This document shows, in pieces, positions 8,224-40,071 of a stretch of 64,000 bases of DNA. A program made the translations under genes and the position numbers. The DNA comes from a phage. How positions within the stretch are numbered: the stretch's first letter is position 1; the number at the start of each line of letters is the position of its first letter. The notes under the pieces were generated by a model. It saw only the letters and a list, made by a program, of their open reading frames with translations. It was not told the DNA's origin and made no database searches. Location of the stretch: sequence record PX880099.1; one strand, written 5' to 3'.

Positions 8224-10815
8224 CTAGTGACAGGACGCCCAGGAGTTACCCACATCATATCCGGCAGTAAGCTGAACGTTAAGATTGTAAAATTCTCCAG
8301 CCTTAGTAACAGCTAAAGCAGCAAGTTCACCTGCCCGACTATAGGCTGTAAACCATCCACCTTTGGGAGATTCATGAATGTTAGCCCAAATTTGCCCTGT
8401 CTCTTTTTCCTTATTATGCTTCCATTCTTCGACTTTAGCAAGGCATTCTTTATCAATTTTCTTTTGTTCTTCAGGATCGTCTACTTTTTTCCAACCTAAT
8501 GATTCGGGTGAAAACCATTTAAATTCTACAAGGTTACGAGAAACTTCAAGCTGGGCTTCATCGTGATATGCAATCATTTGTTGTACGAAGTCTTTATTCT
8601 TCCAGTCATCTTTAAAGAAGTCAACACTTAGTCCTTCTTCTTCGATCATATCATCATAAATAACCATTGCACGTTTAGCACAGATAACCCCACCGCTTTG
8701 GAACAGAGAGTTAAGAATCGCATGAGCAGAACGAGTAGGAACCTTACGACCGTCAATACCCAAAACATATTGTTTACCAGTCTTAACCCAGAAATCGTTT
8801 AAACGTTCTTTAAGACGCGCCAATGGGAATGCAGCTTCCCAGAAAGCATCGAACACCAATTGACCTGTAAACTTATCGCTACCAATTGTTTTAGCAACCT
8901 TGTCGGCTTGTGCACCATAGGTAATACCATACTTAACAGATTTAGCAGGACTACGTTCAAATTTACGTCCAATAGTTTCAGTGATACGTTTTGCCATCAT
9001 TGTGTGAACATCATTAGGTTTCTCTAACAACAGAGCGTTACAATATTCGTGTGGCTCCGGCTCGTATCGCCAACAGTAGTGTGATTCAATTTTTGCTTCC
9101 AAAGAGTCGAAGTCGTAGCCAATCTGGAAGTATTTAGGAACCTCTACACCAAACAAGTTACGCATCTCCCATCCAAACAAAGATGTGACACGAGGAATAT
9201 TAGCTACAGACCTATGCTTCATACGAGAGGTTGCAGCATCACATGTAGCGGCTGGTGTAGGAATACGCCCATCCGCCCTTACTGCGGCTAAGAAACCTTT
9301 ATCATATTCTTGGTCTTCTTCATCTTCTTCCCAATCAGCACCACCACCTAAAATAGAGTTCCTACGATGCTTATACGTTAAGTATTCTACAATCTGTGTA
9401 GCATAAGGGAATTTCTCACCCAAAGCTTGCAGGTTAGGACAGATTTCTTTTTCCTGACCTTTGGTAAAACATGGGTTAGTCAATACTTTAAGACCGCGAC
9501 CTTTTGCTATACGCTCTTGAATCTTCCTTTCCAAGGTTTCCGGTGTGCACTCCAGATGATCACAACGGTCCTGACAAAAATTAGAAGATAAAGTTTGCTC
9601 AACGTAAGCTCGAATACCTTTCTGAAGTTCTTCCTCGCTCTTTTTAATCTTGGTGCCAGATTTAAGAGTCAAATCTTTATCTTTATATTCCGATGGTACC
9701 CAACCTAATCCTACAAGCCAGTTTTTAATATGGGTTGTATCGTTTAATGTTGCAGGGATGTGAGGATCACATAAAGGCTCATCTGCTGCAACTGGCAGTT
9801 TCCACTCTTTCCCCAACATAACTAACCACCAATCTCCATCCCTCTCTTCCAAATGACCATCATGTTTCTTAGCAAAATTGATCATATGGTTAGTTGGTTC
9901 TAAGTTCTTTTTAATTTGCAACTTAGGTGGAATAAAAGCTTTAAGATAACCTTTTGTTGCTGGTTTAGGTGGCAAAATAGGCTCAACGAGTAAACGAAGA
10001 CGCTCCATTTCTGCATCCAAAAAAGCAAGGTTCTCTTCTGCTTGCTTCATGTTAAAAGCAAACCCACGGTGTTCCTGGCGCGTGATAATGTCTGCTACAC
10101 GTTGTTCAAGTTCAAATGGACCTTCCCATTTATCATAATCACCCCATTCTTCCATGAGGTAATTATATACACTTGTGTTGGCTTTGTTATCATAGATACA
10201 GTAATAAAGCATATCCGCAGCAAAAGTCTTAAATCGATCTTCTTCTGGAATCTCTTTACGGAAATCTATTTTTACATCACCGCCTGCTTTTCGAGAAAGT
10301 GCTGCCAAGCTATGTCCTGATTTGCCCTCAATCTTTCGATCTGGGTTTAACACTTTACTCAAAATCAAAGAGTCAATAAGTTTTACCTTATTTTTGCCCC
10401 ACGTGTTATATTTAACACTGTAATCTAATCCATAAAACAGTTTTGTAGCCAACCAGTCATAGTTGATACCGTTGTGTGCCACAGCCATTTCAACCAAATA
10501 TTCAGGCTTGTCTTTAAAATAACCTTCATGATTAATAAAGTCTGGGAAATCTTTTAATTGAAAATGTGTGTAATCTTGCGCCACATATTCTTTAAGAACA
10601 TACGTGTATTTACCATCTGATTCTTCATAAGGACGCCCGTCAAAAATATACTTAGGGCCATCGTGGAAAGCTACTATCTCTCCTGTTTCATGGTTCTCTA
10701 AGACAATACAGTGCATTTGAAATGTGTCTTTGAGACGATAAGGGCTAGCTAAATAATCGATAGTGTCATTATTCAACAATCCGTTTGCTTCAATATCCCA
10801 TGTAAACTTACTCAC
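8224..10815 (-). CDS. DNA polymerase, family A (PolI/T7-like) with 3'-5' exonuclease domain
   Basis: 863 aa; N-terminal WDIEANGL exo-like motif; GYDFDSLEAKI (motif A-like); KSVKYGITYG (motif B); YHDE (motif C). Confidence 0.9.
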   Translation of the reverse strand: MSKFTWDIEANGLLNNDTIDYLASPYRLKDTFQMHCIVLENHETGEIVAFHDGPKYIFDGRPYEESDGKYTYVLKEYVAQDYTHFQLKDFPDFINHEGYFKDKPEYLVEMAVAHNGINYDWLATKLFYGLDYSVKYNTWGKNKVKLIDSLILSKVLNPDRKIEGKSGHSLAALSRKAGGDVKIDFRKEIPEEDRFKTFAADMLYYCIYDNKANTSVYNYLMEEWGDYDKWEGPFELEQRVADIITRQEHRGFAFNMKQAEENLAFLDAEMERLRLLVEPILPPKPATKGYLKAFIPPKLQIKKNLEPTNHMINFAKKHDGHLEERDGDWWLVMLGKEWKLPVAADEPLCDPHIPATLNDTTHIKNWLVGLGWVPSEYKDKDLTLKSGTKIKKSEEELQKGIRAYVEQTLSSNFCQDRCDHLECTPETLERKIQERIAKGRGLKVLTNPCFTKGQEKEICPNLQALGEKFPYATQIVEYLTYKHRRNSILGGGADWEEDEEDQEYDKGFLAAVRADGRIPTPAATCDAATSRMKHRSVANIPRVTSLFGWEMRNLFGVEVPKYFQIGYDFDSLEAKIESHYCWRYEPEPHEYCNALLLEKPNDVHTMMAKRITETIGRKFERSPAKSVKYGITYGAQADKVAKTIGSDKFTGQLVFDAFWEAAFPLARLKERLNDFWVKTGKQYVLGIDGRKVPTRSAHAILNSLFQSGGVICAKRAMVIYDDMIEEEGLSVDFFKDDWKNKDFVQQMIAYHDEAQLEVSRNLVEFKWFSPESLGWKKVDDPEEQKKIDKECLAKVEEWKHNKEKETGQIWANIHESPKGGWFTAYSRAGELAALAVTKAGEFYNLNVQLTAGYDVGNSWASCH

Positions 10816-11609
10816 TATTCCTCCTTTCTAATGTTCTCCAGAACCCACTGAAGTTCTTTTAAACTTAAACTTCTTACTCCCGCAGTTTTACTAGCTTCGG
10901 CTTTAAGTAACGGGTAAGCCTCAATGATACGCGTTTTAAGATCAGAAGTCAAGGCTTTTAAAAAATAGGTAGATGCTTCAGATAAAGAATCTTCTTCTGA
11001 TAACACTTTACCTGCACTTGCTCCCGCTCTCCTAACAGCTATGTCGTAGTCTTTACTGTTGCCTAATACGAATAGTCGATTTTCTCCTAAAACAACGGGA
11101 GAACGCTTCTCGTTGCGTTTAATCCATACCTGGAATACACAAGGAACATCCCAAGGTTCTCCATGAAGAATAAAAGATCCTTTTGGACATTCTTCTTCGT
11201 AAAGAAGATGCATGTGGGGATTTAGTTTGTGTGCAAAAAAGATTTTTTGAAATGTGCGAGGCAAGATAAAACAAATACCACCTTCGTTATCCAACATTTC
11301 AGCACAATGGTTAAAGAATTTAATGGCAAGACTAGCATTTTTTCCAAACGGAGGATTACCGACAAAAGCAGTTACACTGCCAACAGACTCAACAGATTGA
11401 GCTAAAAAATCTGCCTCAATACAATCTTCAAACTTAGGGTCAATATCAAAAGAAGTTATGTTTTTAAAACAAGAAGAGAAAGCTCCTTCTCCCGCAGATG
11501 GTTCTACGTAGTTAGCTTCCTCTCCAAAAATTTCTTTGATCTTATCACATAAGAACCCCGCATAAGCGGGGTTAGTGTAATATTGATCAAGTGTATTCAA
11601 CTTGCTCAA
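10815..11609 (-). CDS. N6-adenine DNA methyltransferase
   Basis: SAM-binding-like VEPSAGEGAF followed by catalytic NPPF; stop overlaps polymerase start by 1 nt. Confidence 0.7.
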   Translation of the reverse strand: MSKLNTLDQYYTNPAYAGFLCDKIKEIFGEEANYVEPSAGEGAFSSCFKNITSFDIDPKFEDCIEADFLAQSVESVGSVTAFVGNPPFGKNASLAIKFFNHCAEMLDNEGGICFILPRTFQKIFFAHKLNPHMHLLYEEECPKGSFILHGEPWDVPCVFQVWIKRNEKRSPVVLGENRLFVLGNSKDYDIAVRRAGASAGKVLSEEDSLSEASTYFLKALTSDLKTRIIEAYPLLKAEASKTAGVRSLSLKELQWVLENIRKEE

Positions 11610-11618
11610 TAGTCCTCC

Positions 11619-12050
11619 TTAGTTGTTAGCGAACTCAATAGTGAGGTCAACTTTACCATCGTCAGAAATAACCATGTTTTTGGTATTTTTAAAGATGATA
11701 TCTACTTTACCTTCACTTACACGACAGAATGCAACACCATCTGCAACTTTATCAATATAATATTTGTAAGAAAGAATACCCACTTTACTACGACCAGCAC
11801 CTTTTGTGAAAGAAGGGCTTACATCGAAACGGAAACCTTTAGAAGAAACAACACGGTAAGAACGTCCAGTTGGGATATGCTCAATAACAGAGACATTGTT
11901 CTCAACAACTTTTACAGCAAACTCTTCAGGATGATCCTCAACAATCATGTGTGGGATGGCAAATGCCAACGCTTGTTTGTGTTTAATAACACCAGCACCC
12001 AGAGCACCAGCAGCTTTAACTTTTGCATTCAGATCGATTGTCATACGCAT
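11619..12050 (-). CDS. hypothetical protein
   Basis: 143 aa ORF in replication operon; no family recognised. Confidence 0.5.
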   Translation of the reverse strand: MRMTIDLNAKVKAAGALGAGVIKHKQALAFAIPHMIVEDHPEEFAVKVVENNVSVIEHIPTGRSYRVVSSKGFRFDVSPSFTKGAGRSKVGILSYKYYIDKVADGVAFCRVSEGKVDIIFKNTKNMVISDDGKVDLTIEFANN

Positions 12051-18057: not shown

Positions 18058-18579
18058 TTAACTCCCCTTTGGTAGATAGAAACCATGCACTTTATCTCGA
18101 TAAACAAGACGCATATCACGCTCCCAGTGTGTCTTTATATTCCGCTTCTTGAAGTATAGAGCACCTTTAGTAACATCTAAAACAGACCGCAATTCAGGAA
18201 AATGTTTCTCTAAATAAAGTAAACGCTCCGCTATTGCTTTTGCTTCCTGCCACTTATCTTTCTCTGTTACGTTAAAAGTTTTCGCATATGAGAATTGCCC
18301 TTTCTGGAACAAGACTCCTCTGACTGTGTTAGGAAAGTAGGCATCATTTCTTCTATTGATTACCACATTCCCAACGGCATTCATTCCTTTTTTACCCAGA
18401 CCGCGACCTTCTGCGTAAATTGCACAAGCTAATAGAATTTTATCATTATATTGCTTTGTACATTTGTGAACTACTTTAGCGGTTTTTACGTTTGCAGCTT
18501 CGGCTTTCGCCACAACAGGTGTAAATGTAAAAGCAGTTAAGGATAGTAACGCAACTGTTACAAAGTTTTTTATCAGCAA
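18058..18579 (-). CDS. secreted cell-wall hydrolase, SleB/CwlJ family (endolysin candidate)
   Basis: TTG start after SD AGGAGG; N-terminal signal peptide; AIYAEGRG..VINR core resembles the SleB hydrolase family. Confidence 0.65.
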   Translation of the reverse strand: MLIKNFVTVALLSLTAFTFTPVVAKAEAANVKTAKVVHKCTKQYNDKILLACAIYAEGRGLGKKGMNAVGNVVINRRNDAYFPNTVRGVLFQKGQFSYAKTFNVTEKDKWQEAKAIAERLLYLEKHFPELRSVLDVTKGALYFKKRNIKTHWERDMRLVYRDKVHGFYLPKGS

Positions 18580-18611
18580 ATTTTGCCTCCTTTTTAAGTT
18601 AACGAACTTCT

Positions 18612-18640
18612 AGTATAACACGATAGAGGCTTTATTGCAA
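18612..18640 (-). promoter_or_regulatory. sigma70-like promoter for the hydrolase operon
   Basis: On - strand TTGCAA-17 bp-TATACT about 30 nt upstream of the SD. Confidence 0.4.
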
Positions 18641-18660
18641 GAGGGGGATTTCTCCCCCTC
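18641..18660 (-). terminator. stem-loop GAGGGGGA-gaaa-TCCCCCTC after the TerD gene
   Basis: Perfect G/C hairpin 19 nt past the TerD-family stop; weak U tail; resembles the hairpin at 801-828. Confidence 0.4.
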
Positions 18661-18678
18661 AAAATCATTTGTTAATTA

Positions 18679-19281
18679 TTATGGACATTCATACCATTCT
18701 TTTTTACCACCGAAGGCCATCACCACATCGCAAATATCCAGACCAGCTTTACCTACACCATATGCTTTCAGTTTCCATTCCCCATCTTCACGAACCAAGG
18801 AAGCCACGTGGCAGATTGTGTTGCCAGCTACTTCAGGAGCCAGGAAGTCAAAATCCAGAATTTCCACATTGCGCTCGGAGTCGAAGATTTTAAGCATACC
18901 TTCAGAAGCATGACCAAAACGTTTCAGACCTGTATCATCATCAATGGTCAGAACAAAGGCAATCTCTTGTGCATCAGGAGAGATTTTAGCCAGAGTAATA
19001 TCAATCTGCTCCATGCTGCCAGTTCCATCACGAACATCGTCACCAGCGAAGGTAGAACGTTCAGGATCAAACTTGTTAGCATAGCAAACTAGATGACGTG
19101 CAGACAGCATTTCAGGATTGCCAGCGGCATTGTGACGACAAACCAGTGCACTTACATCCAGATCCAGTTTAGAATCAGATTTCCAAGAGAATTCCAGGCG
19201 CAGTTCTTTCAGAGCCGGAGCAACTTTCTTCAGGGAAATTTTTTCGCTAGAGCCTTTTTTCAGAGAAATTTTATCAGTCAT
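18679..19281 (-). CDS. TerD-family protein (tellurite-resistance/stress TerD domain)
   Basis: N-terminal KISLKK, LDLDVSALV and GDD..DG motifs typical of TerD; SD GGAGA before ATG. Confidence 0.75.
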   Translation of the reverse strand: MTDKISLKKGSSEKISLKKVAPALKELRLEFSWKSDSKLDLDVSALVCRHNAAGNPEMLSARHLVCYANKFDPERSTFAGDDVRDGTGSMEQIDITLAKISPDAQEIAFVLTIDDDTGLKRFGHASEGMLKIFDSERNVEILDFDFLAPEVAGNTICHVASLVREDGEWKLKAYGVGKAGLDICDVVMAFGGKKEWYECP

Positions 19282-19296
19282 CTTTTGTCTCCTCTA

Positions 19297-19566
19297 TTAT
19301 TTAAGTGTAATACCAGTTACAGTCAATTCTACTTCCAAAAGCTTAGATGTGTTTTGGATTGCTACTAATTGTGCATGATGGTTTAGTTCTACAGCAGAAT
19401 AATCATTTTCCCCATCATCTACTTTTAAATAAACAATAACTTCACTAAGGTCTAAACCATTTTCGTCAAATGCATTTTCATAGACGAAAGTATCTCCTAC
19501 ATCCAAATCTTTAATGGTAAGGCATCGTTTATTTACTTTTTGCTCATCAATTTCGAAGTTTAACAC
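19297..19566 (-). CDS. hypothetical protein, paralog of 20588-20866
   Basis: Shares GDTF..Y..A.DE.GLD and C-terminal E.EL.VT.ITLK with the paralog. Confidence 0.5.
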   Translation of the reverse strand: MLNFEIDEQKVNKRCLTIKDLDVGDTFVYENAFDENGLDLSEVIVYLKVDDGENDYSAVELNHHAQLVAIQNTSKLLEVELTVTGITLK

Positions 19567-19795
19567 TTCTTCCTCCTAATGTTATCTCCGGTTTGTATAT
19601 ACGAAGAATTATAGCATTTTCATTTTCTTTGTCAACCCATTCTTCATAATCGGGCCATACATGAATCTCTACTCTACTTACAATATCTTCCATCCGCACA
19701 GTCCCAATGAAATATTCTTTGAGACTGCGCATAATGAAAGCTTCTCTCTCGCGCCAATAATTTTCTACGACTTGAGAGGCAAGCTCGTCGATCAT
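19547..19795 (-). CDS. hypothetical protein
   Basis: 82 aa ORF in co-oriented block. Confidence 0.45.
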   Translation of the reverse strand: MIDELASQVVENYWREREAFIMRSLKEYFIGTVRMEDIVSRVEIHVWPDYEEWVDKENENAIILRIYKPEITLGGRSVKLRN

Positions 19796-20586
19796 TTTTT
19801 AGCACCTACCTTAACAACCCACTCTCCGAACTCTTCAGATAAGAGTTTGTCATAAAGCTCTGAATCTGTCAAGTCTAAATCTTTAATGCCAATAAAACCA
19901 ACATTGTCATAAGCATTTGCCAGTTCTTTCAGGAAGCTGAACTTCTCATTACCAACGCCAACCATGAACCAATAGATAGGCTTATTCTTATTCTCTTCAA
20001 TAAGACGACGAACAGCACTAGGATCACCATTCTCACCATCTGTCTGGAAGAATACAACACCAGGAGTAACGTCAGCACCTGGTTCAGATACAGCTACAAC
20101 TTTTTCACGCTCTACCGATACTGTTTCAGTTTTACCCAGCAGACGATTAAAGAAGCCTTTCTTTGGAGCCTCCTCTTGTACCACTTGTTTAGTGGTAACA
20201 TATTTGGTAACAGTGCCAAAATACTCATCGTAGATATCTGCCATTACAGGGGCGTAATTTGTTCCACCTCCGATACGAACATTACGCATACATTTACCAA
20301 CATAGTCATCGTAAACGTCTGCTGTTGCTGGAGTAAGCTCTTGAGAACTCGTATTGAAGGCCCACATGTCAATTTGTTCATTATCGTCGAACAGCATACC
20401 AAAAGGAAGCAGTTTGCCTACAAAATCACTCACTACCCCACGAGTATATAGACCATGCATACTACCAGAAATATCTAGAGCACATGCTACACGAAGAACA
20501 ATCTTACCTTCATTCAGGTTCTTATTCTTTTTCAGAGAGAAAGCAAGGTTTTCTTGACGTTTTTTCAGGCTGATTTTCTCGGACAT
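19792..20586 (-). CDS. TerD-like N-terminus plus vWA-domain protein (TerY/TerF-like)
   Basis: N-terminal KISLKK as in TerD; ALDISGSM fits a vWA MIDAS DxSxS motif. Confidence 0.55.
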   Translation of the reverse strand: MSEKISLKKRQENLAFSLKKNKNLNEGKIVLRVACALDISGSMHGLYTRGVVSDFVGKLLPFGMLFDDNEQIDMWAFNTSSQELTPATADVYDDYVGKCMRNVRIGGGTNYAPVMADIYDEYFGTVTKYVTTKQVVQEEAPKKGFFNRLLGKTETVSVEREKVVAVSEPGADVTPGVVFFQTDGENGDPSAVRRLIEENKNKPIYWFMVGVGNEKFSFLKELANAYDNVGFIGIKDLDLTDSELYDKLLSEEFGEWVVKVGAKK

Positions 20587-20587
20587 A

Positions 20588-20866
20588 TTATTTCTCCTTC
20601 TTAAGTGTAATATTGGTAACTTCTAAATCTACTTCCACCATATTTGTATCTGGTGGGATGCAATGAGTATAGCCTCGTTGTGCTAGTGATCCATTAATAC
20701 AGATCGCACTGTTTGTGGAATTTTTAATGAACACCAAGTTACGGTAGGTATCCAACCCTGCGTCTTCATAGGCATCATAATACATGAATGTGTCCCCTAT
20801 GCCAAGGTCTTCGAAAGCAATAGGTAAATCCTGACACTTTTCTTCTTGAATATTGAATCTAAACAC
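20588..20866 (-). CDS. hypothetical protein, paralog of 19297-19566
   Basis: Start set at GTG after SD GAGGAGG, giving MFRFNIQEEK parallel to MLNFEIDEQK of the paralog. Confidence 0.45.
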   Translation of the reverse strand: MFRFNIQEEKCQDLPIAFEDLGIGDTFMYYDAYEDAGLDTYRNLVFIKNSTNSAICINGSLAQRGYTHCIPPDTNMVEVDLEVTNITLKKEK

Positions 20867-21422
20867 GCATACCTCCTCTACCAATTTTGAAGCCCAAATC
20901 GTAAGCTTCCTTAGTGATCTTTTGTAACTCACTTATAGGAAGTGTTACAAGAGGATCATCTTCTTCAATTTCCATCTTGTCATCTTCTGTTTCAATGAGA
21001 GTATTATGCACTTTGTGATAAGGGTTGTCAACACGTTTAAACTTATTCTTTTCTGTGCTGAAAAAACAATCTGGATCTTCTTCACCATCACCCCAACCTT
21101 GGTTAGGATCTCCGTCAGATTGTTCTGTAGGGATTTCACCTGTAAAATACTCTTCCAGCACCATAGCGATACCGTCCCTTGGATTCGAGGAATGCATTAA
21201 ATCACAAACCTTACCCCAATCCATAGCCCATTCGAACCGTTCACGAACGCCATTTTCATTCTCCTTTCCAGAGAAAACACAACCATAACTATCATAGTTG
21301 CCATACATCTCTTCAATAACAACACCATCCTTCAAAAGAAAGAGATAGCAAGGTGATCCGTCGAAAGAAGTAGAAAGGGCAGCTTTGCCCGATTCCTTAC
21401 ACAAAAAGCTAAAACAACCCAT
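20859..21422 (-). CDS. hypothetical acidic protein
   Basis: 187 aa ORF; no family recognised. Confidence 0.5.
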   Translation of the reverse strand: MGCFSFLCKESGKAALSTSFDGSPCYLFLLKDGVVIEEMYGNYDSYGCVFSGKENENGVRERFEWAMDWGKVCDLMHSSNPRDGIAMVLEEYFTGEIPTEQSDGDPNQGWGDGEEDPDCFFSTEKNKFKRVDNPYHKVHNTLIETEDDKMEIEEDDPLVTLPISELQKITKEAYDLGFKIGRGGMRV

Positions 21423-21619
21423 TACAAACCCTCCTTCAGATTATCAAGAGCTACAGTGGTTTCACAAAATTCTCCATATGCTTTATGATGTTCTAGAAAA
21501 GCTTCAGGTCCACCCCAATCATTATCGTGTGTATTCCAACCATCAATAAAAGCATCTTCAATGATTGTGATCAGTTCCTGTCGAGTCAACGTAATGGTAT
21601 CAGGTTTTGGATTATGCAT
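21422..21619 (-). CDS. hypothetical small protein
   Basis: 65 aa; SD GAGGAG before ATG. Confidence 0.5.
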   Translation of the reverse strand: MHNPKPDTITLTRQELITIIEDAFIDGWNTHDNDWGGPEAFLEHHKAYGEFCETTVALDNLKEGL

Positions 21620-21785
21620 CTTCTTTCTCCTCTAAAATATGAAACCCATAGCTACAATAGTCCTGAAAGGTTTCGTGTGCAAGATCTTCTATATCCTCTT
21701 GAGACATATCATCTTCAATTTCGATATCCACAACCTCATTGCATCCACACCAAGCAGTTTCAATATTCACTCGTAAAGTTTTCAT
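21612..21785 (-). CDS. hypothetical small acidic protein (57 aa, below ORF-track cutoff)
   Basis: SD GAGGAAG before ATG; 8-nt overlaps with both neighbours; contains CGC..C. Confidence 0.35.
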   Translation of the reverse strand: MKTLRVNIETAWCGCNEVVDIEIEDDMSQEDIEDLAHETFQDYCSYGFHILEEKEDA

Positions 21786-21988
21786 TCTTCTTCCTCATTA
21801 AATTCCACATCAGAAATAACTTTAAATCTACCAAAGTTACGACAACCTTCATAGATATATCCATCACGACAAGCTGCAAAAATATCTGGAGTTTGTAGCT
21901 GGGTCATTGGGGCAAAGCGTTTCTCTTCGTCATAACGAACACCTATTTCTCCAGCTTGTTCGTCAAGCATGTATACACGGATTCTCAT
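21782..21988 (-). CDS. hypothetical small protein
   Basis: 68 aa; ATGA-type overlaps with neighbours. Confidence 0.45.
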   Translation of the reverse strand: MRIRVYMLDEQAGEIGVRYDEEKRFAPMTQLQTPDIFAACRDGYIYEGCRNFGRFKVISDVEFNEEEE

Positions 21989-23097
21989 TTACCCAACCCC
22001 TTCTTAACAGCGTCAACCATCCCATCTTCGAGAGATTGAACTTCATTGATGTAATCAACACGGGCAGCACGGGCTTCCGTATTGATGCGGTTAGTTTCTT
22101 CCAACATTTTAACCAAGTTTTCCTGATCGTGACGCAGAGTTTCAATATCCAACACTTGACGGTTAGCCAGTGCTGCTGCTTCGATCTGATTCTGTGTGGC
22201 AAGATCGCTACCCAGTTTAATTGCCAGGTTAAATTCATCAAGAACGTTATTCTGTGTCTCTGCGGCTTTCATTTGACGTAAGCTTTCAATATACATTGAG
22301 AAGTTAGCAGAGTAAGCAGGAATAACATTATTTACTATGTTACGCGCAGATCGCATTAAGCTTGCAGAAACTTTTTGCATACCTTGCACACGTGGTCCCA
22401 TTTGGACACACAGTAGGCGCAATGCTTTTAAATCCGCAATACGAATCTCCAGAAGATCCAAGGTATCTCGGATCGCTTGTCGCTGTTCTACCGCATCTTC
22501 TGGAAGAGCAGCCAAAGCTTGTTCTTCTTTTTCATAGGTCGCTGTTAGAAGCTGCATATCTCGGTTCAAACTTGCAGCATATTGTCCAATAGCTTGATGT
22601 AGCTTTTCAAGGTATACCAAAGAATCTTCTTCTTTGCGAATATCCATTTGAAGGTTCTTTACCAACTCTTCAATACGGTTATTAACATTATCAAACTCCC
22701 CAAACAGATCTTCTTTCATACCCATAACTTTTTTAATGAGTTTAGTAATACCTTTGCTTTGTTTAATAGAGTTTGGATCAAGTTGTTTTGCCTGTTTAAT
22801 CAAAGCTGTGAGTCGTTCACTCATCTGATCGCCTTGATTACTACGTTGATGTTTTAATACCTCGGCATTCAAGGAACGCAAGGTTGTTCCTGCCTCTGCC
22901 CCGATCTCTTCGATCTCTTGTCGTGTCATAGAAGGCAAAACTGGGACTTCTTGCGGTGCGGCTGGTGCATAAACAGGACTGGCATCTAACACGCTTGGAG
23001 CAAATACAGATTTACTTGCATCTGTTGTTGCAGTGAATACACTCATTTCAGACTTCTTCTGACCACCAGTAGCTGCTTTTAAAAACGGACTTGTCAT
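21985..23097 (-). CDS. TelA-like toxic-anion-resistance protein
   Basis: 370 aa, long predicted coiled-coil, overall resemblance to TelA/KlaA; sits between TerD-like and TerC genes. Confidence 0.65.
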   Translation of the reverse strand: MTSPFLKAATGGQKKSEMSVFTATTDASKSVFAPSVLDASPVYAPAAPQEVPVLPSMTRQEIEEIGAEAGTTLRSLNAEVLKHQRSNQGDQMSERLTALIKQAKQLDPNSIKQSKGITKLIKKVMGMKEDLFGEFDNVNNRIEELVKNLQMDIRKEEDSLVYLEKLHQAIGQYAASLNRDMQLLTATYEKEEQALAALPEDAVEQRQAIRDTLDLLEIRIADLKALRLLCVQMGPRVQGMQKVSASLMRSARNIVNNVIPAYSANFSMYIESLRQMKAAETQNNVLDEFNLAIKLGSDLATQNQIEAAALANRQVLDIETLRHDQENLVKMLEETNRINTEARAARVDYINEVQSLEDGMVDAVKKGLGK

Positions 23098-23684
23098 TCT
23101 TCATTCTCCTCTTCTGCATCTCTTATGTATGGTGAAACACCGTATTCTTTAGCTACTTTAACCCAATCGTCCCATTTATACAACCATAATTTTCCTTCTG
23201 TTCCTTCTTTATCTGATTTTAACCACATATTAGGTTGCTTACCTGGATACATGCGATTAGGTTTACGATTATAACCTCTAATACATCTTGTCGCAAACCT
23301 ATCTACCAGAACAAGAACATATTTATATTCGTGGTTCAACGGCTCTTTGGAAGTAGCTTTAGGGTTTGCCCCTAATTCTGCTGCCAGTTTTTGCCAATGA
23401 GCACCGTGCCGACTAAACTTACCCATACAACCATCAATAGCATGAGCAATTTCGTGCTTCATTGTATCCACGATCATATCTCTTGTAGAGTTCTTATGCA
23501 AGTGCCAATTTACAACAACAATTTTATCTCGGTAGTTGCACCAACCGAAAGAGTTATTCACTTTGTTTCTAACGCAAGCTTTATATCCTGCTTCACGTAA
23601 CATGTTGTAGTAAACAGGAAAATCTTCTTTTATTTCCTGCATCACTTCCCACCACAAGAGTTGCAAGTCTCTCTCGGTATACAT
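23094..23684 (-). CDS. SprT-like zinc metallopeptidase domain protein
   Basis: HEIAHAID (HExxH) with downstream His/Cys-containing segment. Confidence 0.5.
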   Translation of the reverse strand: MYTERDLQLLWWEVMQEIKEDFPVYYNMLREAGYKACVRNKVNNSFGWCNYRDKIVVVNWHLHKNSTRDMIVDTMKHEIAHAIDGCMGKFSRHGAHWQKLAAELGANPKATSKEPLNHEYKYVLVLVDRFATRCIRGYNRKPNRMYPGKQPNMWLKSDKEGTEGKLWLYKWDDWVKVAKEYGVSPYIRDAEEENEE

Positions 23685-23687
23685 AAC

Positions 23688-24281
23688 TTACACCTTAAAA
23701 GTGAAATGCGTGGTCGTGGCTTCAAAATCAGGGCCAGATAAACGTGCACTGAAATCTGAAATATTTGTAATTAAAAAGCTTTTATGCATACCTAACACAG
23801 CCACGCTTTCAATATCTTCTACTAACATTTCAATCATGTTAGAAACATGGCTGAACGTAGTGTTTTGTTTTTTGATGGTGTAGAAAGAAAGATTCCCACC
23901 TGCTGTATAAGATACTTCTTCAAAATCTTTAATCGTATACTGTGTCCCATCAGTAAAGAAAATGGTAGCTTTATTAGTAGCACGTTTCTTGTTTTTTGGT
24001 CCTTTTTTACGTTTACTGCGAGTAGGAAAACCATTTGGGAATACCGTAGCTACAAATTCTTCAGGAGAAACCTCCTTACCGAAATCATAACCATAAGAAA
24101 CAGCATCTATAAACTCATCGTCCTCATTTTTAAAATAATGAAAATAGGGCCAATTTGACAGATTATCAAGCATCTTATGCTCATCCACAGCAGAGAACGT
24201 ATCCCTCAAAGCACGTGTGATTTGCAAAGCATTAGGCAACCTTTTAACACCTACGATGGAAGTACGAATAGAAATTGTCAT
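23688..24281 (-). CDS. hypothetical protein
   Basis: 197 aa with basic KRKKGPKNKKR patch. Confidence 0.5.
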   Translation of the reverse strand: MTISIRTSIVGVKRLPNALQITRALRDTFSAVDEHKMLDNLSNWPYFHYFKNEDDEFIDAVSYGYDFGKEVSPEEFVATVFPNGFPTRSKRKKGPKNKKRATNKATIFFTDGTQYTIKDFEEVSYTAGGNLSFYTIKKQNTTFSHVSNMIEMLVEDIESVAVLGMHKSFLITNISDFSARLSGPDFEATTTHFTFKV

Positions 24282-24295
24282 TATTTTTCTCCTTA

Positions 24296-24733
24296 TTAAC
24301 GTCGCTTGCTACGAGATGAACTCTTTTTACTTAAAGGGCTATTGTAAGATTTACGAGTTGTATAGCTGCTATTTGTTTTAAAAGTTTGTCTCGGCTTTTC
24401 ATAAGTTTTTATCTCTTGTTTAGGCTTACCATAAAAATTAGTTTTCGGTTTAGGTGTGTTATAATGTTTATTAATAATCGTTCTGTTATCGTTATAATCC
24501 CCGCCGCTACGATTACTGCCACCGCTCATCATATGTCCTAACAACATACCTGTAGCAAACTCACCAACACCGCTACTACTAGAACCGCCACCATTGTTGA
24601 TAATAGTTGTATCTCCGTCAGATCCTTGTTGAGCGTATTGTTGAGGAGGTTGTTGATATTGTGTAGGATTTGTTTCATCCTCGCAAGCTGTTAAAAAGAT
24701 ACAACCAATTAAAATCAGGGCTAGTTTTTTCAT
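24296..24733 (-). CDS. putative lipoprotein, Gly/Ser/Gln-rich with basic C-terminal tail
   Basis: Start set at ATG after SD GAGGAAAG; signal peptide ending in lipobox LTAC. Confidence 0.55.
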   Translation of the reverse strand: MKKLALILIGCIFLTACEDETNPTQYQQPPQQYAQQGSDGDTTIINNGGGSSSSGVGEFATGMLLGHMMSGGSNRSGGDYNDNRTIINKHYNTPKPKTNFYGKPKQEIKTYEKPRQTFKTNSSYTTRKSYNSPLSKKSSSRSKRR

Positions 24734-24920
24734 ATTTGCTTTCCTCGTTTTGACTATTAATACATCTGTGTTTGAAATCTCCAGAGAAGCAATAAAGCTG
24801 CTCTCCATCTCGGTATAAACTCACTTTACTGCCGTTGATTACGCTTGTCAATACAAAAATTACAACAAACAACCCTATTGCAAAACAAATATTTTCAAAC
24901 ACAACCAACAAGTATTTCAT
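24675..24920 (-). CDS. small membrane protein overlapping the lipoprotein gene start
   Basis: One predicted N-terminal TM helix; ATGA overlap with upstream gene; 59-nt out-of-frame overlap with lipoprotein gene. Confidence 0.4.
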   Translation of the reverse strand: MKYLLVVFENICFAIGLFVVIFVLTSVINGSKVSLYRDGEQLYCFSGDFKHRCINSQNEESKYEKTSPDFNWLYLFNSLRG

Positions 24921-25267
24921 TTTAAAAATACCTCATCATCAGTTTCATTATCCCAGAAGAACAAATCCCAACCATTAGGATCATTCCACTTGGCGGCTGG
25001 AGAAGTCCAGATTTGTTCGATATCAATATTCAAAACTTCGCCGTTTCGTTTTGAAACAGCCTTGGTTAATTCCCAACGAGATACAGGTTCTACCTCTCCT
25101 GAACCACTTCCACAACAAACTACTACGTTAGGAGGAAGGTTAATTGGATCTTTGGTCACAATCATAACGCTTACCCCAGGGTAAACTTTTGAAAGATAAT
25201 CTGAAACGTAATCAACATCACCAGGTAAATCCCAAACAAGTTTTTGAATTTCATCAAAATTGCTCAT
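24917..25267 (-). CDS. hypothetical protein
   Basis: 116 aa; first gene after the TerC terminator. Confidence 0.5.
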   Translation of the reverse strand: MSNFDEIQKLVWDLPGDVDYVSDYLSKVYPGVSVMIVTKDPINLPPNVVVCCGSGSGEVEPVSRWELTKAVSKRNGEVLNIDIEQIWTSPAAKWNDPNGWDLFFWDNETDDEVFLK

Positions 25268-25269
25268 AA

Positions 25270-25296
25270 GTCTCTCCTATAAAATAGCCTCCCGAA
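25270..25296 (-). terminator. rho-independent terminator after TerC gene
   Basis: AGCCTCC-cgaa-GGAGGCT hairpin followed on - strand by ATTTTAT. Confidence 0.55.
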
Positions 25297-25309
25297 GGAG
25301 GCTCATCTA

Positions 25310-26284
25310 TTAAACAGCAGCTTCTTCTTTTTCAGGGAAGATAAAGCTTGCAATAACGCCAAGAGCTAATGTGCCTAGAACAATCATCAGACTTACGTTA
25401 GGGGAAATATCATGCGGGAGGAATGACCACTTGGCATGAAGTGTTTCACCGAACGGGTGATACATAAGTTTAGCACCAACAAACACCAGAACCACAGCAA
25501 CAGCTTTCTCTAAGTGAACCAAATATTTCACAGCTACACTTAACACAAAGAAAAGTGCACGTAAACCAAGAACAGCCATCAGCATTGCAGAATAAACTAG
25601 CAGAGGTTCTTGTGTCACACCGATCACAGCCGGAACTGAATCAAAAGAGAAGACAATATCTGTAAGCTCAATAACAAACACACAAAGAAGAGCAGGAGTT
25701 GCATATTTAATACCATTCTTAATGGTAATGAACTTTTCACCATCCAGTGCATTGTGCACAGGCAGGATTTTACCTACTAAACGAACAGCCCAATGTTTAG
25801 AGTAATCGATATCCTCTTCTTCATCACCACCTTTGATGATAGCCACGGCAGACCAAGCTACAATCAAACCGAACAACACTTGGACCGACCAATGAAGGTT
25901 AAACAGAGCGGTGCCTGCTGCAACAAAAATACCTCGGAAGACAATGGCTCCTGCAATCCCCCAAAGTAAAATCTTATGTTGGAGATGTGTGCTCTTAATT
26001 CCAAAGCTTGCAAAAATTGCCATGAACACCATTAGGTTATCTACAGAAAGACTCTTTTCCAACACATAGCCACTTAGGAAAAGCGCGGCAAACTCTTTAC
26101 CATGTTCTACCCAAATGAATGCGTAATATCCTAAAGCTAAAGCAATCCAAAAAACAGACCAAAGCAAAGCAGATTTAATTCCAATTTCTTTATTCTCTTT
26201 ATGACCAAAGAAATCGATACCAATAGACAATGCTAAAATACCAACTAAAACAACTACATCAATGATTGGGAAACCAAGTTGCAT
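25310..26284 (-). CDS. TerC-family integral membrane protein
   Basis: Multiple TM helices; signature LSVDNLMVF; SD AAGGAG before ATG. Confidence 0.8.
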   Translation of the reverse strand: MQLGFPIIDVVVLVGILALSIGIDFFGHKENKEIGIKSALLWSVFWIALALGYYAFIWVEHGKEFAALFLSGYVLEKSLSVDNLMVFMAIFASFGIKSTHLQHKILLWGIAGAIVFRGIFVAAGTALFNLHWSVQVLFGLIVAWSAVAIIKGGDEEEDIDYSKHWAVRLVGKILPVHNALDGEKFITIKNGIKYATPALLCVFVIELTDIVFSFDSVPAVIGVTQEPLLVYSAMLMAVLGLRALFFVLSVAVKYLVHLEKAVAVVLVFVGAKLMYHPFGETLHAKWSFLPHDISPNVSLMIVLGTLALGVIASFIFPEKEEAAV

Positions 26285-26365: not shown

Positions 26366-26587
26366 TTATTTTGAAGAACTGGAGGAAAAGATTCCACGCA
26401 GCACTGCCATAATGAACGCTACGCACACCACGGTCCAGAATGTAACAGGAACAGTGATATCTGTGTGACCCATCATTTCAACAACGTAGTTGTAAGCCAG
26501 CAGCAGAAGCCACGCTGGAATCATACTGATCAGGAAAGCCAGAACAAACACGATAACTACTGCCAGAACACCTGCAACAACACCCAT
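26366..26587 (-). CDS. small membrane protein (two TM helices)
   Basis: 73 aa, strongly hydrophobic. Confidence 0.5.
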   Translation of the reverse strand: MGVVAGVLAVVIVFVLAFLISMIPAWLLLLAYNYVVEMMGHTDITVPVTFWTVVCVAFIMAVLRGIFSSSSSK

Positions 26588-36812: not shown

Positions 36813-37175
36813 TTAACCTAAACACATACGTGCGATCAGACCTTGAATTAGTTTATCTGCTTCTTCTCGATCATAGTCGGTATCTTCTATACCACCATCT
36901 TCGTCACGATAAACTTTACCTTCCAGGTACCCAGCATCGATCAAACCAATAATCAAATCGAACTGCCAACAAGAATTACCGAAAGGACGTTTTCCACTGA
37001 AACTGTCTTCTTCTTCCCAAAGTGTAGAGAGCAGTCGTCTGAAATATTCACGCACAGTAACAGTGCCAAGATCATCGTCTTCAAAAACAACATCTAAAGC
37101 ATCTGGTTCAGCTTTATCTACAACAGGCACATAACGTTGACCATTAATAACAACATCTACAATCGTTTCTCTCAT
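36813..37175 (-). CDS. hypothetical acidic protein
   Basis: 120 aa. Confidence 0.5.
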   Translation of the reverse strand: MRETIVDVVINGQRYVPVVDKAEPDALDVVFEDDDLGTVTVREYFRRLLSTLWEEEDSFSGKRPFGNSCWQFDLIIGLIDAGYLEGKVYRDEDGGIEDTDYDREEADKLIQGLIARMCLG

Positions 37176-39751: not shown

Positions 39752-40071
39752 AAAACCTCCTTCTGGTTGGCTGCTTCAATCATAACGTTAAGAGTCTCCA
39801 TACCGCTTTCAACTGCTTGAGCAATCTCTTGGAACACTGTTTTCTTAAAGATGTATAAAGATCCTGCCTGTAAGCGTTGCACACAGCATAAGAGGGTTTG
39901 GTGATCCATAACAAAGTCTCCATAAGCACAATCAATTTTCCCTGTGATTGGGTTGTCTCGTGAGCGAGGATCGTATTCTAATGTGATATGCGTTACACCA
40001 GGTAAAGTAACAAACTGACAACGGATGTTGACACGTGGTGCAATTGACACGCTAAACAAACTGTTTGACAT
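39748..40071 (-). CDS. hypothetical protein
   Basis: 107 aa. Confidence 0.45.
   Translation of the reverse strand: MSNSLFSVSIAPRVNIRCQFVTLPGVTHITLEYDPRSRDNPITGKIDCAYGDFVMDHQTLLCCVQRLQAGSLYIFKKTVFQEIAQAVESGMETLNVMIEAANQKEVL

What the first reader, a model, noticed from the sequence alone, without database searches (positions are those of the whole stretch)
18058..24920. Secreted SleB-family hydrolase as endolysin candidate, with overlapping lipoprotein and membrane genes
The only recognisable lysis enzyme is a SleB/CwlJ-type wall hydrolase with an N-terminal signal peptide and a TTG start, implying export by the Sec system rather than a holin. No canonical holin is evident. At 24296-24920 a lipoprotein gene (lipobox LTAC) and a single-TM membrane protein gene overlap out of frame, reminiscent of spanin pairs or of a superinfection-exclusion lipoprotein.
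Basis: partly seen in the sequence, partly recalled or inferred. Interest (0 to 1): 0.45.

Follow-up and report, generated by a model that had tools for sequence, protein, structure and literature searches.

The report
Known phage wall hydrolase, not lysis cassette
The flagged genes are real, but they lie in a well-known E. coli phage type (phAPEC8-like) that carries a standard T4-type lysozyme and its true outer-membrane-breaking pair outside this window, so the secreted hydrolase is an already annotated second wall enzyme and the lipoprotein/membrane pair is not the spanin.

Summary
The window is a Phapecoctavirus (phAPEC8-like) E. coli myophage, about 98% identical to sequenced isolates.

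**What holds up**
- The genes exist as described.
- There is a 173-aa SleB-catalytic-domain (Pfam Hydrolase_2) protein with a TTG start, a strong ribosome-binding site and a textbook cleavable signal peptide.
- About 5.7 kb upstream, an 81-aa single-TM gene overlaps a lipoprotein gene (lipobox LTAC) by 59 nt.

**What does not hold up**
- The hydrolase is already annotated 'endolysin' in RefSeq.
- The genus is published as having two lytic enzymes. The second is a full-length T4 e-type lysozyme.
- A catalogued overlapped Rz/Rz1-type spanin pair sits next to the large terminase gene.
- The lysozyme and the spanin pair both lie outside the 64-kb window.
- The TM/lipoprotein pair fails the spanin tests, and cultured relatives lack the lipoprotein.
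- Most of the interval is a TerC/TelA/vWA-TerF/TerD module that the finding did not mention.

**New but minor**
- The TTG start is conserved in every relative examined.
- Synonymous change is strongly suppressed across the first 44 codons, which include the signal peptide (p = 4e-8). This is unexplained.
- The hydrolase gene always follows TerD.

No holin is identified anywhere in the genus. Interest is low.

The parts
18058..18579 (-). Gene for a 173-aa secreted SleB-catalytic-domain (Hydrolase_2) wall hydrolase. It is orthologous to Schickermooser gp228, which RefSeq annotates as 'endolysin'.
   Evidence: Pfam PF07486 E 1.4e-17. PHROG 938 'endolysin'. PDB 4F55/4FET alignment places E57 on the catalytic Glu. 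98% identical cluster representative. RefSeq annotation.
18496..18579 (-). Codons 1-28: TTG start plus a predicted cleavable Sec signal peptide (MLIKNFVTVALLSLTAFTFTPVVAKAEA|A). It lies within a nucleotide-level conservation island that runs to about codon 44.
   Evidence: The -3/-1 small-residue rule and Pro21 are conserved in 15 homologues. TTG is conserved in all relatives read. Among amino-acid-invariant codons, 7/29 show synonymous variation in codons 2-44 against 50/59 in codons 45-173, Fisher p = 4e-8. Alignment A4.
18586..18660 (-). The hydrolase gene's own control region. It has a GC hairpin after the TerD stop (18660-18641), a sigma70-like promoter (TTGCAA 18640-18635, 17-nt spacer, TG-extended TATACT 18617-12) and the ribosome-binding site AGGAGG (18591-18586).
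   Evidence: Sequence read. Promoter scan. The same architecture is present in L006, L009, L010, L011, L012 and L019.
24675..24920 (-). 81-aa single-pass membrane protein (Schickermooser gp214 orthologue). It has an N-terminal TM segment (conserved VFENIC...) and a short tail with two conserved Cys. Its ATG overlaps the upstream gene's stop (ATGA).
   Evidence: Hydropathy. Alignment A3 shows C44 and C53 invariant. PHROG 17591, unknown function, matches residues 1-66 only. Sequence.
24296..24733 (-). 145-aa lipoprotein (gp215 orthologue). It has lipobox LTAC, a Gln/Pro-rich linker, a conserved GVGxFATGMLLGHMMSG core, TTIIN, and a Ser/Lys/Arg-rich tail ending RR(R).
   Evidence: PHROGs 32479 and 21570, unknown function. 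Family of 589 cluster representatives, none of the 10 looked up has a name. No Pfam, NCBIfam or PADLOC match.
18679..19281 (-). TerD-domain protein, always immediately upstream of the hydrolase gene.
   Evidence: Pfam PF02342 E 3e-28. The adjacency holds in all relatives, including L089.
19792..20586 (-). vWA-TerF-like protein.
   Evidence: Pfam PF10138 E 2.8e-37.
21985..23097 (-). TelA-like protein. Its start overlaps the stop of the SprT-like gene.
   Evidence: Pfam PF05816 E 1.7e-33. Coordinates.
23094..23684 (-). SprT-like zinc metalloprotease-family protein, in the same tightly packed gene string as the TM/lipoprotein pair.
   Evidence: Pfam PF10263 E 4e-9.
25310..26284 (-). TerC-family integral membrane protein. 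A terminator hairpin follows at 25303-25286.
   Evidence: Pfam PF03741 E 3.6e-40. Terminator, and annotated in the relative.

Best explanation
The interval is part of the replication/metabolism arm of a phAPEC8-like (Phapecoctavirus) E. coli myophage. It is not a lysis cassette.

**Most of it is a Ter-type envelope-stress module** (TerC, TelA, vWA-TerF, TerD, SprT-like).

**The hydrolase gene.** At the downstream end of the module sits a separately promoted gene for a small SleB-catalytic-domain wall hydrolase.
- Shown: the domain, the conserved catalytic Glu57, the conserved TTG start with a perfect ribosome-binding site, and a conserved signal peptide with an A-x-A cleavage site.
- Also shown: two invariant Cys (C40, C52) in the mature part.
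- Inferred: the protein is made at a low rate from TTG, exported by Sec and cleaved after Ala28. It would then fold in the periplasm, probably with a C40-C52 disulfide, and cut peptidoglycan like the SleB lytic-transglycosylase fold.
- Inferred: it serves as a holin-independent second (accessory) endolysin. Its activity would be held in check until the membrane is de-energised at lysis.

**The main lysis machinery of the genus lies outside the window.** It consists of a cytoplasmic T4 e-type lysozyme, which needs a still unidentified holin, and an overlapped Rz/Rz1-type spanin pair just upstream of terL.

**The 81-aa membrane protein and the overlapping lipoprotein are not spanins.** They form a fast-evolving, dispensable envelope pair. 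They sit in the same tightly packed gene string as the SprT-like and TelA genes. The most likely role is an accessory envelope or superinfection-related one, but the function is unknown.
For: **Identity of the phage.** 98.5% identity over 9 kb to AV126, and 64 records at 95-99%. The window maps to vB_Ec-G1 72,995-135,249.

**Hydrolase.** The TTG start, ribosome-binding site and promoter are conserved.

**Signal peptide rather than SAR domain.** There is no Gly in the h-region, and Pro21 is invariant. Small residues sit at -3/-1 in all 15 homologues.

**Second enzyme.** The 166-aa lysozyme matches PF00959 and T4 lysozyme at E 1e-48 across positions 7-165. It is present in 65 records at 95% identity or more. 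The genus is published as having two lytic proteins (PMC10793346).

**Spanins.**
- In vB_Ec-G1 the i-spanin is at 40035-40427 and the o-spanin at 40336-40662, with lipobox MMTGC.
- They match PHROGs 4297 and 1267, 'Rz-like spanin'.
- The region is present in 65 records, including AV126.
- The curated spanin catalogue lists phAPEC8 gp121 as an overlapped i-spanin.

**Analogy.** Vequintavirinae have a conserved signal-peptide SleB-like protein that is toxic in E. coli, a separate endolysin, and spanins next to terL (PMC7344957).

**The TM/lipoprotein pair.**
- Synteny and rapid divergence: 35-50% identity where TelA is 74-79%.
- The lipoprotein is deleted in L019, which is 99.5% identical to cultured phiWec179/181/186. 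There is no tblastn hit outside the 65 close records.
- Tight packing with neighbouring genes: ATGA overlaps and 3-14-nt gaps.
Against: - No experiment shows export, cleavage, activity or a role in lysis for this or any phage Hydrolase_2 enzyme in the literature I could search.
- Time of expression is unknown. Early, replication-arm and structural genes all carry sigma70-like extended -10 promoters, so promoter type does not place the gene.
- The hydrolase gene is never next to a holin or spanin here. It is always next to TerD, which fits a non-lysis role equally well.
- The signal peptide is far more conserved than signal peptides usually are, in protein and in DNA. It may therefore do more than target the protein.
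- The window itself does not contain the lysozyme or the spanins. Their presence in this particular phage is inferred from relatives at 95-99% identity.
- The AlphaFold model was of low confidence (pLDDT 51), so fold and disulfide geometry are not confirmed.
Confidence: 0.62

Rival explanations
1. The SleB-type hydrolase is the phage's only endolysin and reaches the wall through Sec with no holin. The overlapping TM/lipoprotein pair acts as the spanin.
For: Within the window it is the only muralytic gene. No holin is recognisable. The pair has the order and overlap typical of i-/o-spanin genes.
Against: - A T4-type lysozyme and PHROG- and literature-confirmed spanins exist in 65 near-identical genomes.
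- The part of the TM protein after the membrane segment is only about 25-50 aa.
- Asp at +2 in most lipoprotein relatives predicts inner-membrane retention.
- The lipoprotein is absent from cultured relatives.
- Neither protein matches a spanin PHROG.
Confidence: 0.04
2. The hydrolase is a signal-arrest-release (SAR) endolysin. The N-terminal segment is not cleaved and tethers an inactive enzyme to the inner membrane. Membrane depolarisation by a pinholin then releases it.
For: - The N-terminal segment is unusually conserved, with LLSLTAFTFTP invariant. This would be expected if it were part of a regulated, functional domain.
- 40% of residues 5-24 are Ala, Ser or Thr.
- Conserved Cys lie near the active site, as in P1 Lyz (from my own knowledge).
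Against: - There is no Gly in the hydrophobic core.
- The core is only about 14-16 residues and ends at an invariant Pro.
- A conserved A-x-A site follows 5-7 residues later in all homologues.
- No pinholin candidate is adjacent.
Confidence: 0.1
3. The hydrolase is not a lysis protein. It is a periplasmic wall-remodelling enzyme that works with the Ter envelope module during infection, for example adjusting peptidoglycan while the module buffers envelope stress.
For: - The TerD-to-hydrolase gene order is kept in every relative, down to 38% hydrolase identity (L089), even where other parts of the block are rearranged.
- The gene lies in the replication arm behind a host-type promoter.
- The weak TTG start is conserved, which fits a low, tolerated dose.
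- A separate canonical endolysin exists.
Against: - The adjacency occurs in one phage lineage only, so it may be inherited order.
- None of 75 bacterial SleB-like loci has Ter neighbours.
- In other phages the same domain sits in obvious lysis cassettes or in large virion proteins.
- A relative's homologue was toxic on expression in E. coli (PMC7344957).
Confidence: 0.2
4. The TM/lipoprotein pair is a superinfection-exclusion or receptor-masking system, like T5 Llp, the Cor lipoproteins or T4 Imm/Sp.
For: - The pair evolves fast relative to its neighbours.
- It is dispensable in cultured relatives.
- It is envelope-located by sequence features.
- Distant lipoprotein homologues sit among replication genes rather than in lysis or structural modules.
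Against: - No similarity to any known exclusion protein, and no PADLOC, Pfam or NCBIfam match.
- Much of the lipoprotein is low-complexity sequence, which alone can explain the fast divergence.
- Asp at +2 in most relatives predicts an inner-membrane location, unlike Llp and Cor.
Confidence: 0.25

Closest known systems
Phapecoctavirus 'endolysin' / putative cell wall hydrolase (e.g. Schickermooser gp228, YP_009823853.1; the phAPEC8 and ESCO5 orthologues)
   Same: Same gene: 173 aa, about 98% identical, the same position after TerD, and the same annotated coordinates implying the same TTG start.
   Different: Nothing of substance. This is the already annotated orthologue.
SleB-like signal-peptide hydrolase of Vequintavirinae (Pectobacterium phage CB7_83, Cronobacter phage CR3_087)
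   Same: Small Hydrolase_2 protein with a signal peptide. It is conserved across a subfamily of large myophages that also carry a separate endolysin and have their spanins next to terL. It was toxic when expressed in E. coli (PMC7344957).
   Different: Only distant sequence similarity. The signal-peptide versions in about 140-kb contigs are 35-38% identical over the domain; I did not identify those contigs taxonomically. In CB7 a 65-aa two-TM holin candidate overlaps the gene, and none does here. There is no Ter neighbourhood there.
Bacillus SleB spore cortex-lytic enzyme (PDB 4FET, 4F55)
   Same: Same catalytic domain, with the catalytic Glu aligned (E57).
   Different: It lacks SleB's N-terminal peptidoglycan-binding domain. 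It scores 52.5 bits against the 236.5-bit cut-off of the SleB equivalog model. E. coli wall has no muramic delta-lactam, the SleB substrate determinant (from my own knowledge), so the specificity must differ.
Sec-exported endolysins with cleavable signal peptides (Lys44 of Oenococcus phage fOg44), and SAR endolysins (P1 Lyz, phage 21 R); both recalled from my own knowledge
   Same: Export of the wall enzyme through the host Sec system independently of a canonical holin.
   Different: Different folds and, for Lys44, a Gram-positive host. Unlike SAR domains, the N-terminal segment here has no Gly and has a conserved cleavage site. Here the enzyme coexists with a cytoplasmic T4-type lysozyme.
Two-component spanins (lambda Rz/Rz1; phAPEC8 gp121 and its overlapped o-spanin)
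   Same: The TM/lipoprotein pair has the same gene order (membrane protein first), an out-of-frame overlap and a lipobox.
   Different: - The part after the membrane segment is too short (about 25-50 aa) and was not tested for coiled coil.
- Most relatives carry Asp at +2.
- The overlap varies from 59 nt to none.
- The lipoprotein is absent in cultured relatives.
- There are no spanin PHROG hits.
- The real spanins are elsewhere.
T4 dispersed lysis genes (e, t, pseT.3/pseT.2, rI); from my own knowledge
   Same: The genus has a T4 e-type lysozyme. Its lysis genes are scattered rather than grouped in a cassette.
   Different: No homologue of holin T was recognised. T4 has no secreted SleB-type enzyme.

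Membership tests
Hydrolase_2 / SleB-CwlJ catalytic domain (PF07486) | Significant match to the family profile above the curated threshold. | tested here: met
   64.6 bits against a cut-off of 27, E 1.4e-17, covering profile positions 3-100 of 100.
Hydrolase_2 / SleB-CwlJ catalytic domain (PF07486) | Catalytic glutamate of the SleB active site. | tested here: met
   E57 aligns with the Glu of 'YGESRGE' in 4F55/4FET. It is invariant in 15 homologues.
SleB proper (spore cortex-lytic enzyme, TIGR02869 equivalog) | Full-length architecture with an N-terminal peptidoglycan-binding domain, scoring above the equivalog cut-off. | tested here: not met
   52.5 bits against a cut-off of 236.5. Only the catalytic part (profile positions 79-159) is matched.
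Peptidoglycan-degrading enzyme (activity) | Demonstrated cleavage of peptidoglycan. | not testable with these tools
   No biochemical report was found for a phage Hydrolase_2 enzyme. The only hint is toxicity of a relative's homologue, reported as 'data not shown' (PMC7344957).
Sec-dependent cleavable (SPase I) signal peptide | Basic n-region, a 7-15-residue hydrophobic core, a helix breaker, and small residues at -3/-1. | tested here: met
   K4; FVTVALLSLTAFTF; P21; A26-E27-A28|A29. The -3/-1 positions are A, G or S in all 15 homologues. This was judged by rule, because no SignalP was available.
SAR (signal-arrest-release) endolysin | An uncleaved, weakly hydrophobic, Gly/Ala-rich N-terminal TM domain with no signal-peptidase site. 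| tested here: not met
   There are 0 Gly in residues 5-24, and a conserved A-x-A site follows the core.
Canonical holin-endolysin cassette | A small membrane protein (holin) gene adjacent to the endolysin gene. | tested here: not met
   The neighbours are TerD upstream and three small soluble proteins downstream. No holin family hit was found for any small membrane protein tested.
Two-component spanin: i-spanin | An N-terminal TM domain followed by a long periplasmic, largely coiled-coil domain. | tested here: not met
   A TM segment is present, but the tail is about 50 aa here and 25-35 aa in relatives. The PHROG match is an unknown-function family. Coiled-coil propensity was not computed.
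Two-component spanin: o-spanin | An outer-membrane lipoprotein: a lipobox with no Lol-avoidance Asp at +2. | tested here: inconclusive
   The lipobox LTAC is present. The +2 residue is Glu in this genus but Asp in most relatives (CDD, CDE).
Two-component spanin (pair) | Required lysis function, with one spanin system per phage. | tested here: not met
   The genuine spanins lie next to terL. The lipoprotein gene is missing from cultured phiWec179-type phages.
Llp/Cor-type exclusion lipoproteins | Sequence or structural similarity to known exclusion lipoproteins, and blocking of a receptor. | not testable with these tools
   No family match in Pfam, PHROGs (function), NCBIfam or PADLOC. The function needs plating assays.
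Ter-type stress module | Co-located TerC, TelA, TerD and vWA-TerF domains. | tested here: met
   PF03741, PF05816, PF02342 and PF10138 all score above their cut-offs within 18.7-26.3 kb.

The most novel reading that the evidence does not exclude
The secreted SleB-type enzyme may be a tightly dosed periplasmic enzyme rather than a plain accessory endolysin. A conserved nucleotide element would control its synthesis or export. That element spans the TTG start and the first 44 codons, which include the signal peptide, where synonymous change is almost absent. The enzyme's function would be coupled to the adjacent Ter envelope module rather than to the terminal lysis step.
Probability: 0.12. Interest if true: 0.5.

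Novelty: already known. Interest (0 to 1): 0.2.

Why it matters
The finding itself adds little. The hydrolase is already annotated as an endolysin, the genus is already reported to have two lytic enzymes, and its spanins are already catalogued.

The useful outcome is corrective:
- The interval should not be read as a holin-less lysis cassette.
- The TM/lipoprotein pair should not be annotated as spanins.

Three small open points remain for anyone working on these therapeutic-candidate phages:
1. Nobody has shown what the conserved secreted SleB-type enzyme does in phages that also have a standard endolysin.
2. The holin of the genus is still unidentified.
3. The hydrolase's start region shows unusual selection: a conserved TTG start and suppressed synonymous change.

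Tried and rejected
1. **Structure prediction.** AlphaFold on the 15-sequence alignment gave pLDDT 50.9. That is too poor for a fold search or for disulfide geometry, so no fold search was run.
2. **RNA structure as the cause of the 5' conservation.**
   - The minimum free energy is no better than for shuffled sequences (z = -0.01).
   - There is no Rfam match in 17.5-26.7 kb.
   - The weak SD/anti-SD pairing in the predicted fold is broken by a synonymous change in L009 and L011.
3. **An overlapping gene as the cause.**
   - An alternative sense frame is open for about 40 codons in all six lineages but has no start codon.
   - A possible -1 slippery site (A AAA AAC) in the window is not conserved in L006, L009 or L010.
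   - The conserved 38-mer occurs once per genome.
4. **Promoter class as a clock.** Early, replication-arm and structural genes all carry sigma70-like TG-extended promoters, so timing cannot be inferred.
5. **Ter-hydrolase linkage in bacteria.** None of 75 bacterial SleB-like loci carried TerD, TelA or vWA. One had an incidental TerC 5 kb away.
6. **Naming the lipoprotein and the TM protein.**
   - There is no Pfam, NCBIfam or PADLOC match.
   - A profile search found 589 cluster representatives; the 10 looked up were all unnamed metagenomic singletons.
   - Distant homologues are not linked to Ter genes or to a TM partner.
7. **Holin hunt.** Small membrane proteins are listed for the window and for vB_Ec-G1. 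None hits a holin family.
8. **Literature.** No biochemical study of a phage SleB-type endolysin turned up.

Full report
**What the window is.** A 9-kb stretch around the finding is 98.5% identical to Escherichia phage AV126 and 98.1% to vB_EcoM_Schickermooser. Sixty-four phage records match at 95-99%, and those whose taxonomy I read are Phapecoctavirus (Stephanstirmvirinae). The whole window maps colinearly onto vB_Ec-G1 positions 72,995-135,249. It therefore covers tail-fibre genes, the replication and nucleotide-metabolism arm (minus strand) and part of the early region. It does not cover the packaging, head and tail arm, nor the other end of the replication arm.

**The observation.**
- All the genes concerned are on the minus strand.
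- ORF 18058-18579 encodes a 173-aa protein that matches Pfam Hydrolase_2 (PF07486, E 1.4e-17) and PHROG 938 'endolysin'.
- It aligns to the catalytic domain of Bacillus SleB (PDB 4F55, 4FET), with Glu57 on the catalytic Glu.
- It is not an SleB equivalog. It scores 52.5 bits against a cut-off of 236.5, and only the catalytic part is matched.
- TTG at 18579 is the first start codon after an in-frame stop, and lies 6 nt after AGGAGG.
- ORF 24675-24920 encodes an 81-aa protein with one N-terminal hydrophobic segment.
- The lipoprotein gene, from the annotated start at 24733, begins MKKLALILIGCIFLTAC and overlaps the 81-aa gene by 59 nt in another frame.
- The two flagged items are 5.7 kb apart. 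The DNA between them encodes TerD, vWA-TerF-like, TelA and SprT-like proteins, with TerC just upstream. The finding did not mention this module.

**The signal peptide.** In an alignment of 15 homologues at 58-98% identity, the N-terminus shows these features:
- a basic n-region (K4);
- a 14-16-residue hydrophobic core with no glycine;
- an invariant Pro21;
- small residues at -3 and -1 in every sequence (AEA|AN, AKA|AN, GVA|N, ALA|AN, SEA|K and so on).

This is the pattern of a signal-peptidase-I substrate. It is not that of a Gly/Ala-rich, uncleaved SAR domain. Two Cys (C40, C52) in the mature part are invariant, which fits a periplasmic, disulfide-bonded protein. Export and cleavage are inferred, not shown.

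**What lies outside the window.** The complete genome of vB_Ec-G1 carries two other sets of lysis genes.
- A 166-aa protein at 11133-11633 has no signal peptide. It matches PF00959 and aligns to T4 lysozyme over positions 7-165 at E 1e-48. The gene is present at 95% identity or more in 65 records.
- An i-spanin gene lies immediately upstream of the large terminase gene (40035-40427; 130 aa; N-terminal TM).
- An o-spanin gene overlaps it out of frame. Its true start is at 40336 (MQKLILAVCLALPLMMTGC...).
- The two match PHROGs 4297 and 1267, 'Rz-like spanin'.
- This region is present in 65 records at 95% identity or more, including AV126, the closest relative of the window.
- The curated spanin catalogue of Kongari et al. 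lists exactly this pair for phAPEC8: gp121, 'ovl' (overlapped) architecture, 110-nt overlap (PMC6139136).
- A genome announcement states that a Phapecoctavirus encodes two lytic proteins, PF00959 and PF07486 (PMC10793346).
- None of these genes is in the window: tblastn gives nothing below E 0.4.

The idea that lysis here dispenses with a holin does not hold, because a cytoplasmic T4-type lysozyme needs one. No holin is annotated or recognisable, however. The best-looking candidates in vB_Ec-G1 are an 80-aa two-TM protein in the tail module and an adjacent pair of small two-TM proteins. They hit only 'membrane protein' or unknown-function families.

**Comparison with other phages.** In Vequintavirinae the situation is the same and is published. 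A signal-peptide SleB-like protein is conserved across the subfamily and is toxic when expressed in E. coli. A separate endolysin is present and the spanins sit next to terL. In CB7 a two-TM holin candidate overlaps the SleB-like gene (PMC7344957). No such neighbour exists here.

Across 42 more distant viral loci, the Hydrolase_2 domain occurs in several forms:
- small cytoplasmic proteins flanked by small membrane proteins (classical cassettes);
- signal-peptide or signal-anchor versions;
- C-terminal domains of roughly 950-aa proteins.

Its use as a phage lysin domain is therefore ordinary.

**The gene's regulatory setting.**
- After the TerD stop there is a GC hairpin (18660-18641).
- A sigma70-like promoter follows: TTGCAA, 17 nt, TG-extended TATACT (18640-18612).
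- The ribosome-binding site and TTG come next.
- This layout, and the TTG start itself, recur in L006, L009, L010, L011, L012 and L019.
- The TTG start with a ribosome-binding site also recurs in the more distant L013, L017 and L089.
- A conserved weak start codon behind a perfect ribosome-binding site suggests selection for a limited dose.
- Promoter type does not date expression. Early, replication-arm and structural genes, including the spanin operon, all carry similar promoters.

**An unexplained feature.**
- From about the -35 element to codon 44 the DNA is nearly invariant among six lineages. Their mature hydrolase domains are only 63-75% identical, and the flanks on both sides have diverged.
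- Among codons whose amino acid is invariant, 7 of 29 show any synonymous variation in codons 2-44, against 50 of 59 in codons 45-173 (Fisher p = 4e-8).
- In comparisons with L006 and L009, this is the lowest 25-codon synonymous window of any of the six neighbouring genes compared (0.04-0.10 against 0.15-0.38).
- By contrast, the lipoprotein's signal peptide diverges freely.
- I found no stable RNA fold, no Rfam match, no overlapping ORF with a start codon and no second copy in the genome.
- A candidate -1 slippery site is not conserved.
- Possible causes are a translational control site or a codon-speed requirement for export. None was tested.

**Link to the Ter genes.**
- The gene order is macro-domain gene, 73-aa membrane protein, TerC, gp213, TM protein, lipoprotein, gp216, SprT-like, TelA, several further genes, vWA-TerF, TerD, hydrolase. 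This order is kept in relatives down to about 52% hydrolase identity.
- TerD directly followed by the hydrolase gene is kept even in L089. There the hydrolase is 38% identical, and sugar-epimerase genes have been inserted elsewhere in the block.
- None of 75 bacterial SleB-like loci shows Ter neighbours.
- The link is therefore confined to one phage lineage. It cannot be told apart from inherited gene order, but it keeps a non-lysis role open.

**The TM/lipoprotein pair.**
- The pair recurs in relatives but evolves fast: 35-50% identity where TelA is 74-79%.
- The TM protein is 56-81 aa. It has a conserved VFENIC... membrane segment and two invariant Cys in a tail of about 25-50 aa. This suggests an N-in, C-out topology with a small disulfide-bonded periplasmic tail, which is too short to span the periplasm as an i-spanin must.
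- The overlap with the lipoprotein gene varies: 59 nt here, 14 nt from the lipoprotein start I adopted in L006, 8 nt from the upstream in-frame ATG in L009, and none in L013.
- The lipoprotein has Asp at +2 (CDD, CDE) in most relatives. In E. coli that is the inner-membrane retention signal (from my own knowledge). This genus has Glu at +2.
- Its hallmarks are a Gln/Pro-rich linker, a GVGxFATGMLLGHMMSG core, TTIIN, and a Ser/Arg-rich tail ending RRR.
- A profile search found 589 cluster representatives. The 10 looked up were unnamed metagenomic singletons.
- Distant members sit among replication genes, without Ter genes or a TM partner.
- In L019 the lipoprotein gene is deleted while the TM gene is kept. 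That stretch is 99.5% identical to the cultured phages phiWec179, 181 and 186. tblastn finds the lipoprotein only in the 65 close records.
- A protein that plaque-forming relatives lack cannot be the essential o-spanin.
- The pair is tightly packed (ATGA overlaps and 3-14-nt gaps) with gp213, gp216, the SprT-like gene and TelA, downstream of the TerC terminator.
- Its function is unknown. An accessory envelope role or an exclusion role is the best guess.

**Verdict.** The hydrolase part of the interpretation restates an existing annotation. The 'sole endolysin, no holin' and 'spanin' readings are not supported at genome level. The hydrolase is best described as the genus's second, Sec-exported muralytic enzyme, whose role has not been tested by experiment. 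Novelty: already known. Interest: low. A modest residue remains in the conserved TTG start, the suppressed synonymous change in the first 44 codons, and the constant TerD adjacency.

Noticed in passing
window 18450-18640 (-): A nucleotide-level conservation island runs from the hydrolase promoter through codon 44. Among amino-acid-invariant codons, 7/29 show synonymous variation against 50/59 in the rest of the gene (p = 4e-8). The TTG start is conserved in every relative read. RNA folding, Rfam, overlapping ORFs and genome repeats do not explain it.
   Followed up: partly
window 18679-26284 (-), continuing to about 28570: A complete Ter-type module fills most of the flagged interval: TerC, TelA, vWA-TerF-like, TerD and SprT-like. 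Upstream lie macro-domain, PRTase and HAD-hydrolase genes, as annotated in the relative (their window positions are approximate). The hydrolase gene always directly follows TerD in this phage lineage, but never in 75 bacterial SleB-like loci.
   Followed up: partly
window 48456, 49893, 50344, 51402, 53654, 57720 (+); near-matches at 54812, 55615, 56414: A repeated early-region unit. A consensus TTGACA-N16/17-(TG)nTAAGAT promoter is immediately followed by a conserved leader, GTATCACRTAGGGCGG, that starts a GC hairpin. There are 6 exact pattern matches against 0 expected.
   Followed up: partly
window 19297-19566 (-) and 20588-20866 (-): Two paralogous small genes of unknown function (89 and 92 aa, 33% identity, E 8e-15) lie inside the Ter block. 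One is near TerD and one is next to the vWA-TerF gene.
   Followed up: partly
window 26366-26587 (-): A 73-aa protein with two or three hydrophobic segments always sits between the macro-domain gene and TerC in relatives. It matches PHROG 16065 (unknown function). It is a possible small membrane partner of TerC, or a holin-like protein.
   Followed up: partly
L004 16406-16648 (+) and L003 28458-28831 (-) (vB_Ec-G1, outside the window): Holin candidates for the genus. One is an 80-aa two-TM protein with a charged C-terminus inside the tail module (PHROG 1322, 'membrane protein'). The other is an adjacent pair of 60- and 64-aa two-TM proteins. None is annotated as a holin.
   Followed up: partly
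L003 40336-40662 (+) (vB_Ec-G1): The o-spanin in this GenBank record is annotated from an internal start (40480). The lipobox-bearing start is at 40336, which makes the spanin pair overlapped, as in the published catalogue. The same record does not call the 81-aa membrane protein gene, although the ORF is intact (L002, about 8880-9120).
   Followed up: yes
window 41701-41889 (+), 42677-42841 (+), 37172-37534 (-), 57124-57414 (+): Several further small membrane or secreted proteins of unknown function are present. Two are two-TM proteins of 62 and 54 aa, and two are proteins with signal peptides (120 and 96 aa). PHROG matches for the first three are unknown-function families; the 96-aa protein was not scanned.
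   Followed up: partly
L019 3566-4100; phiWec179/181/186 (LC739533-5): A natural deletion of the lipoprotein gene, with the upstream TM gene retained and a larger gp216 homologue, occurs in a group of cultured E. coli phages.
   Followed up: partly
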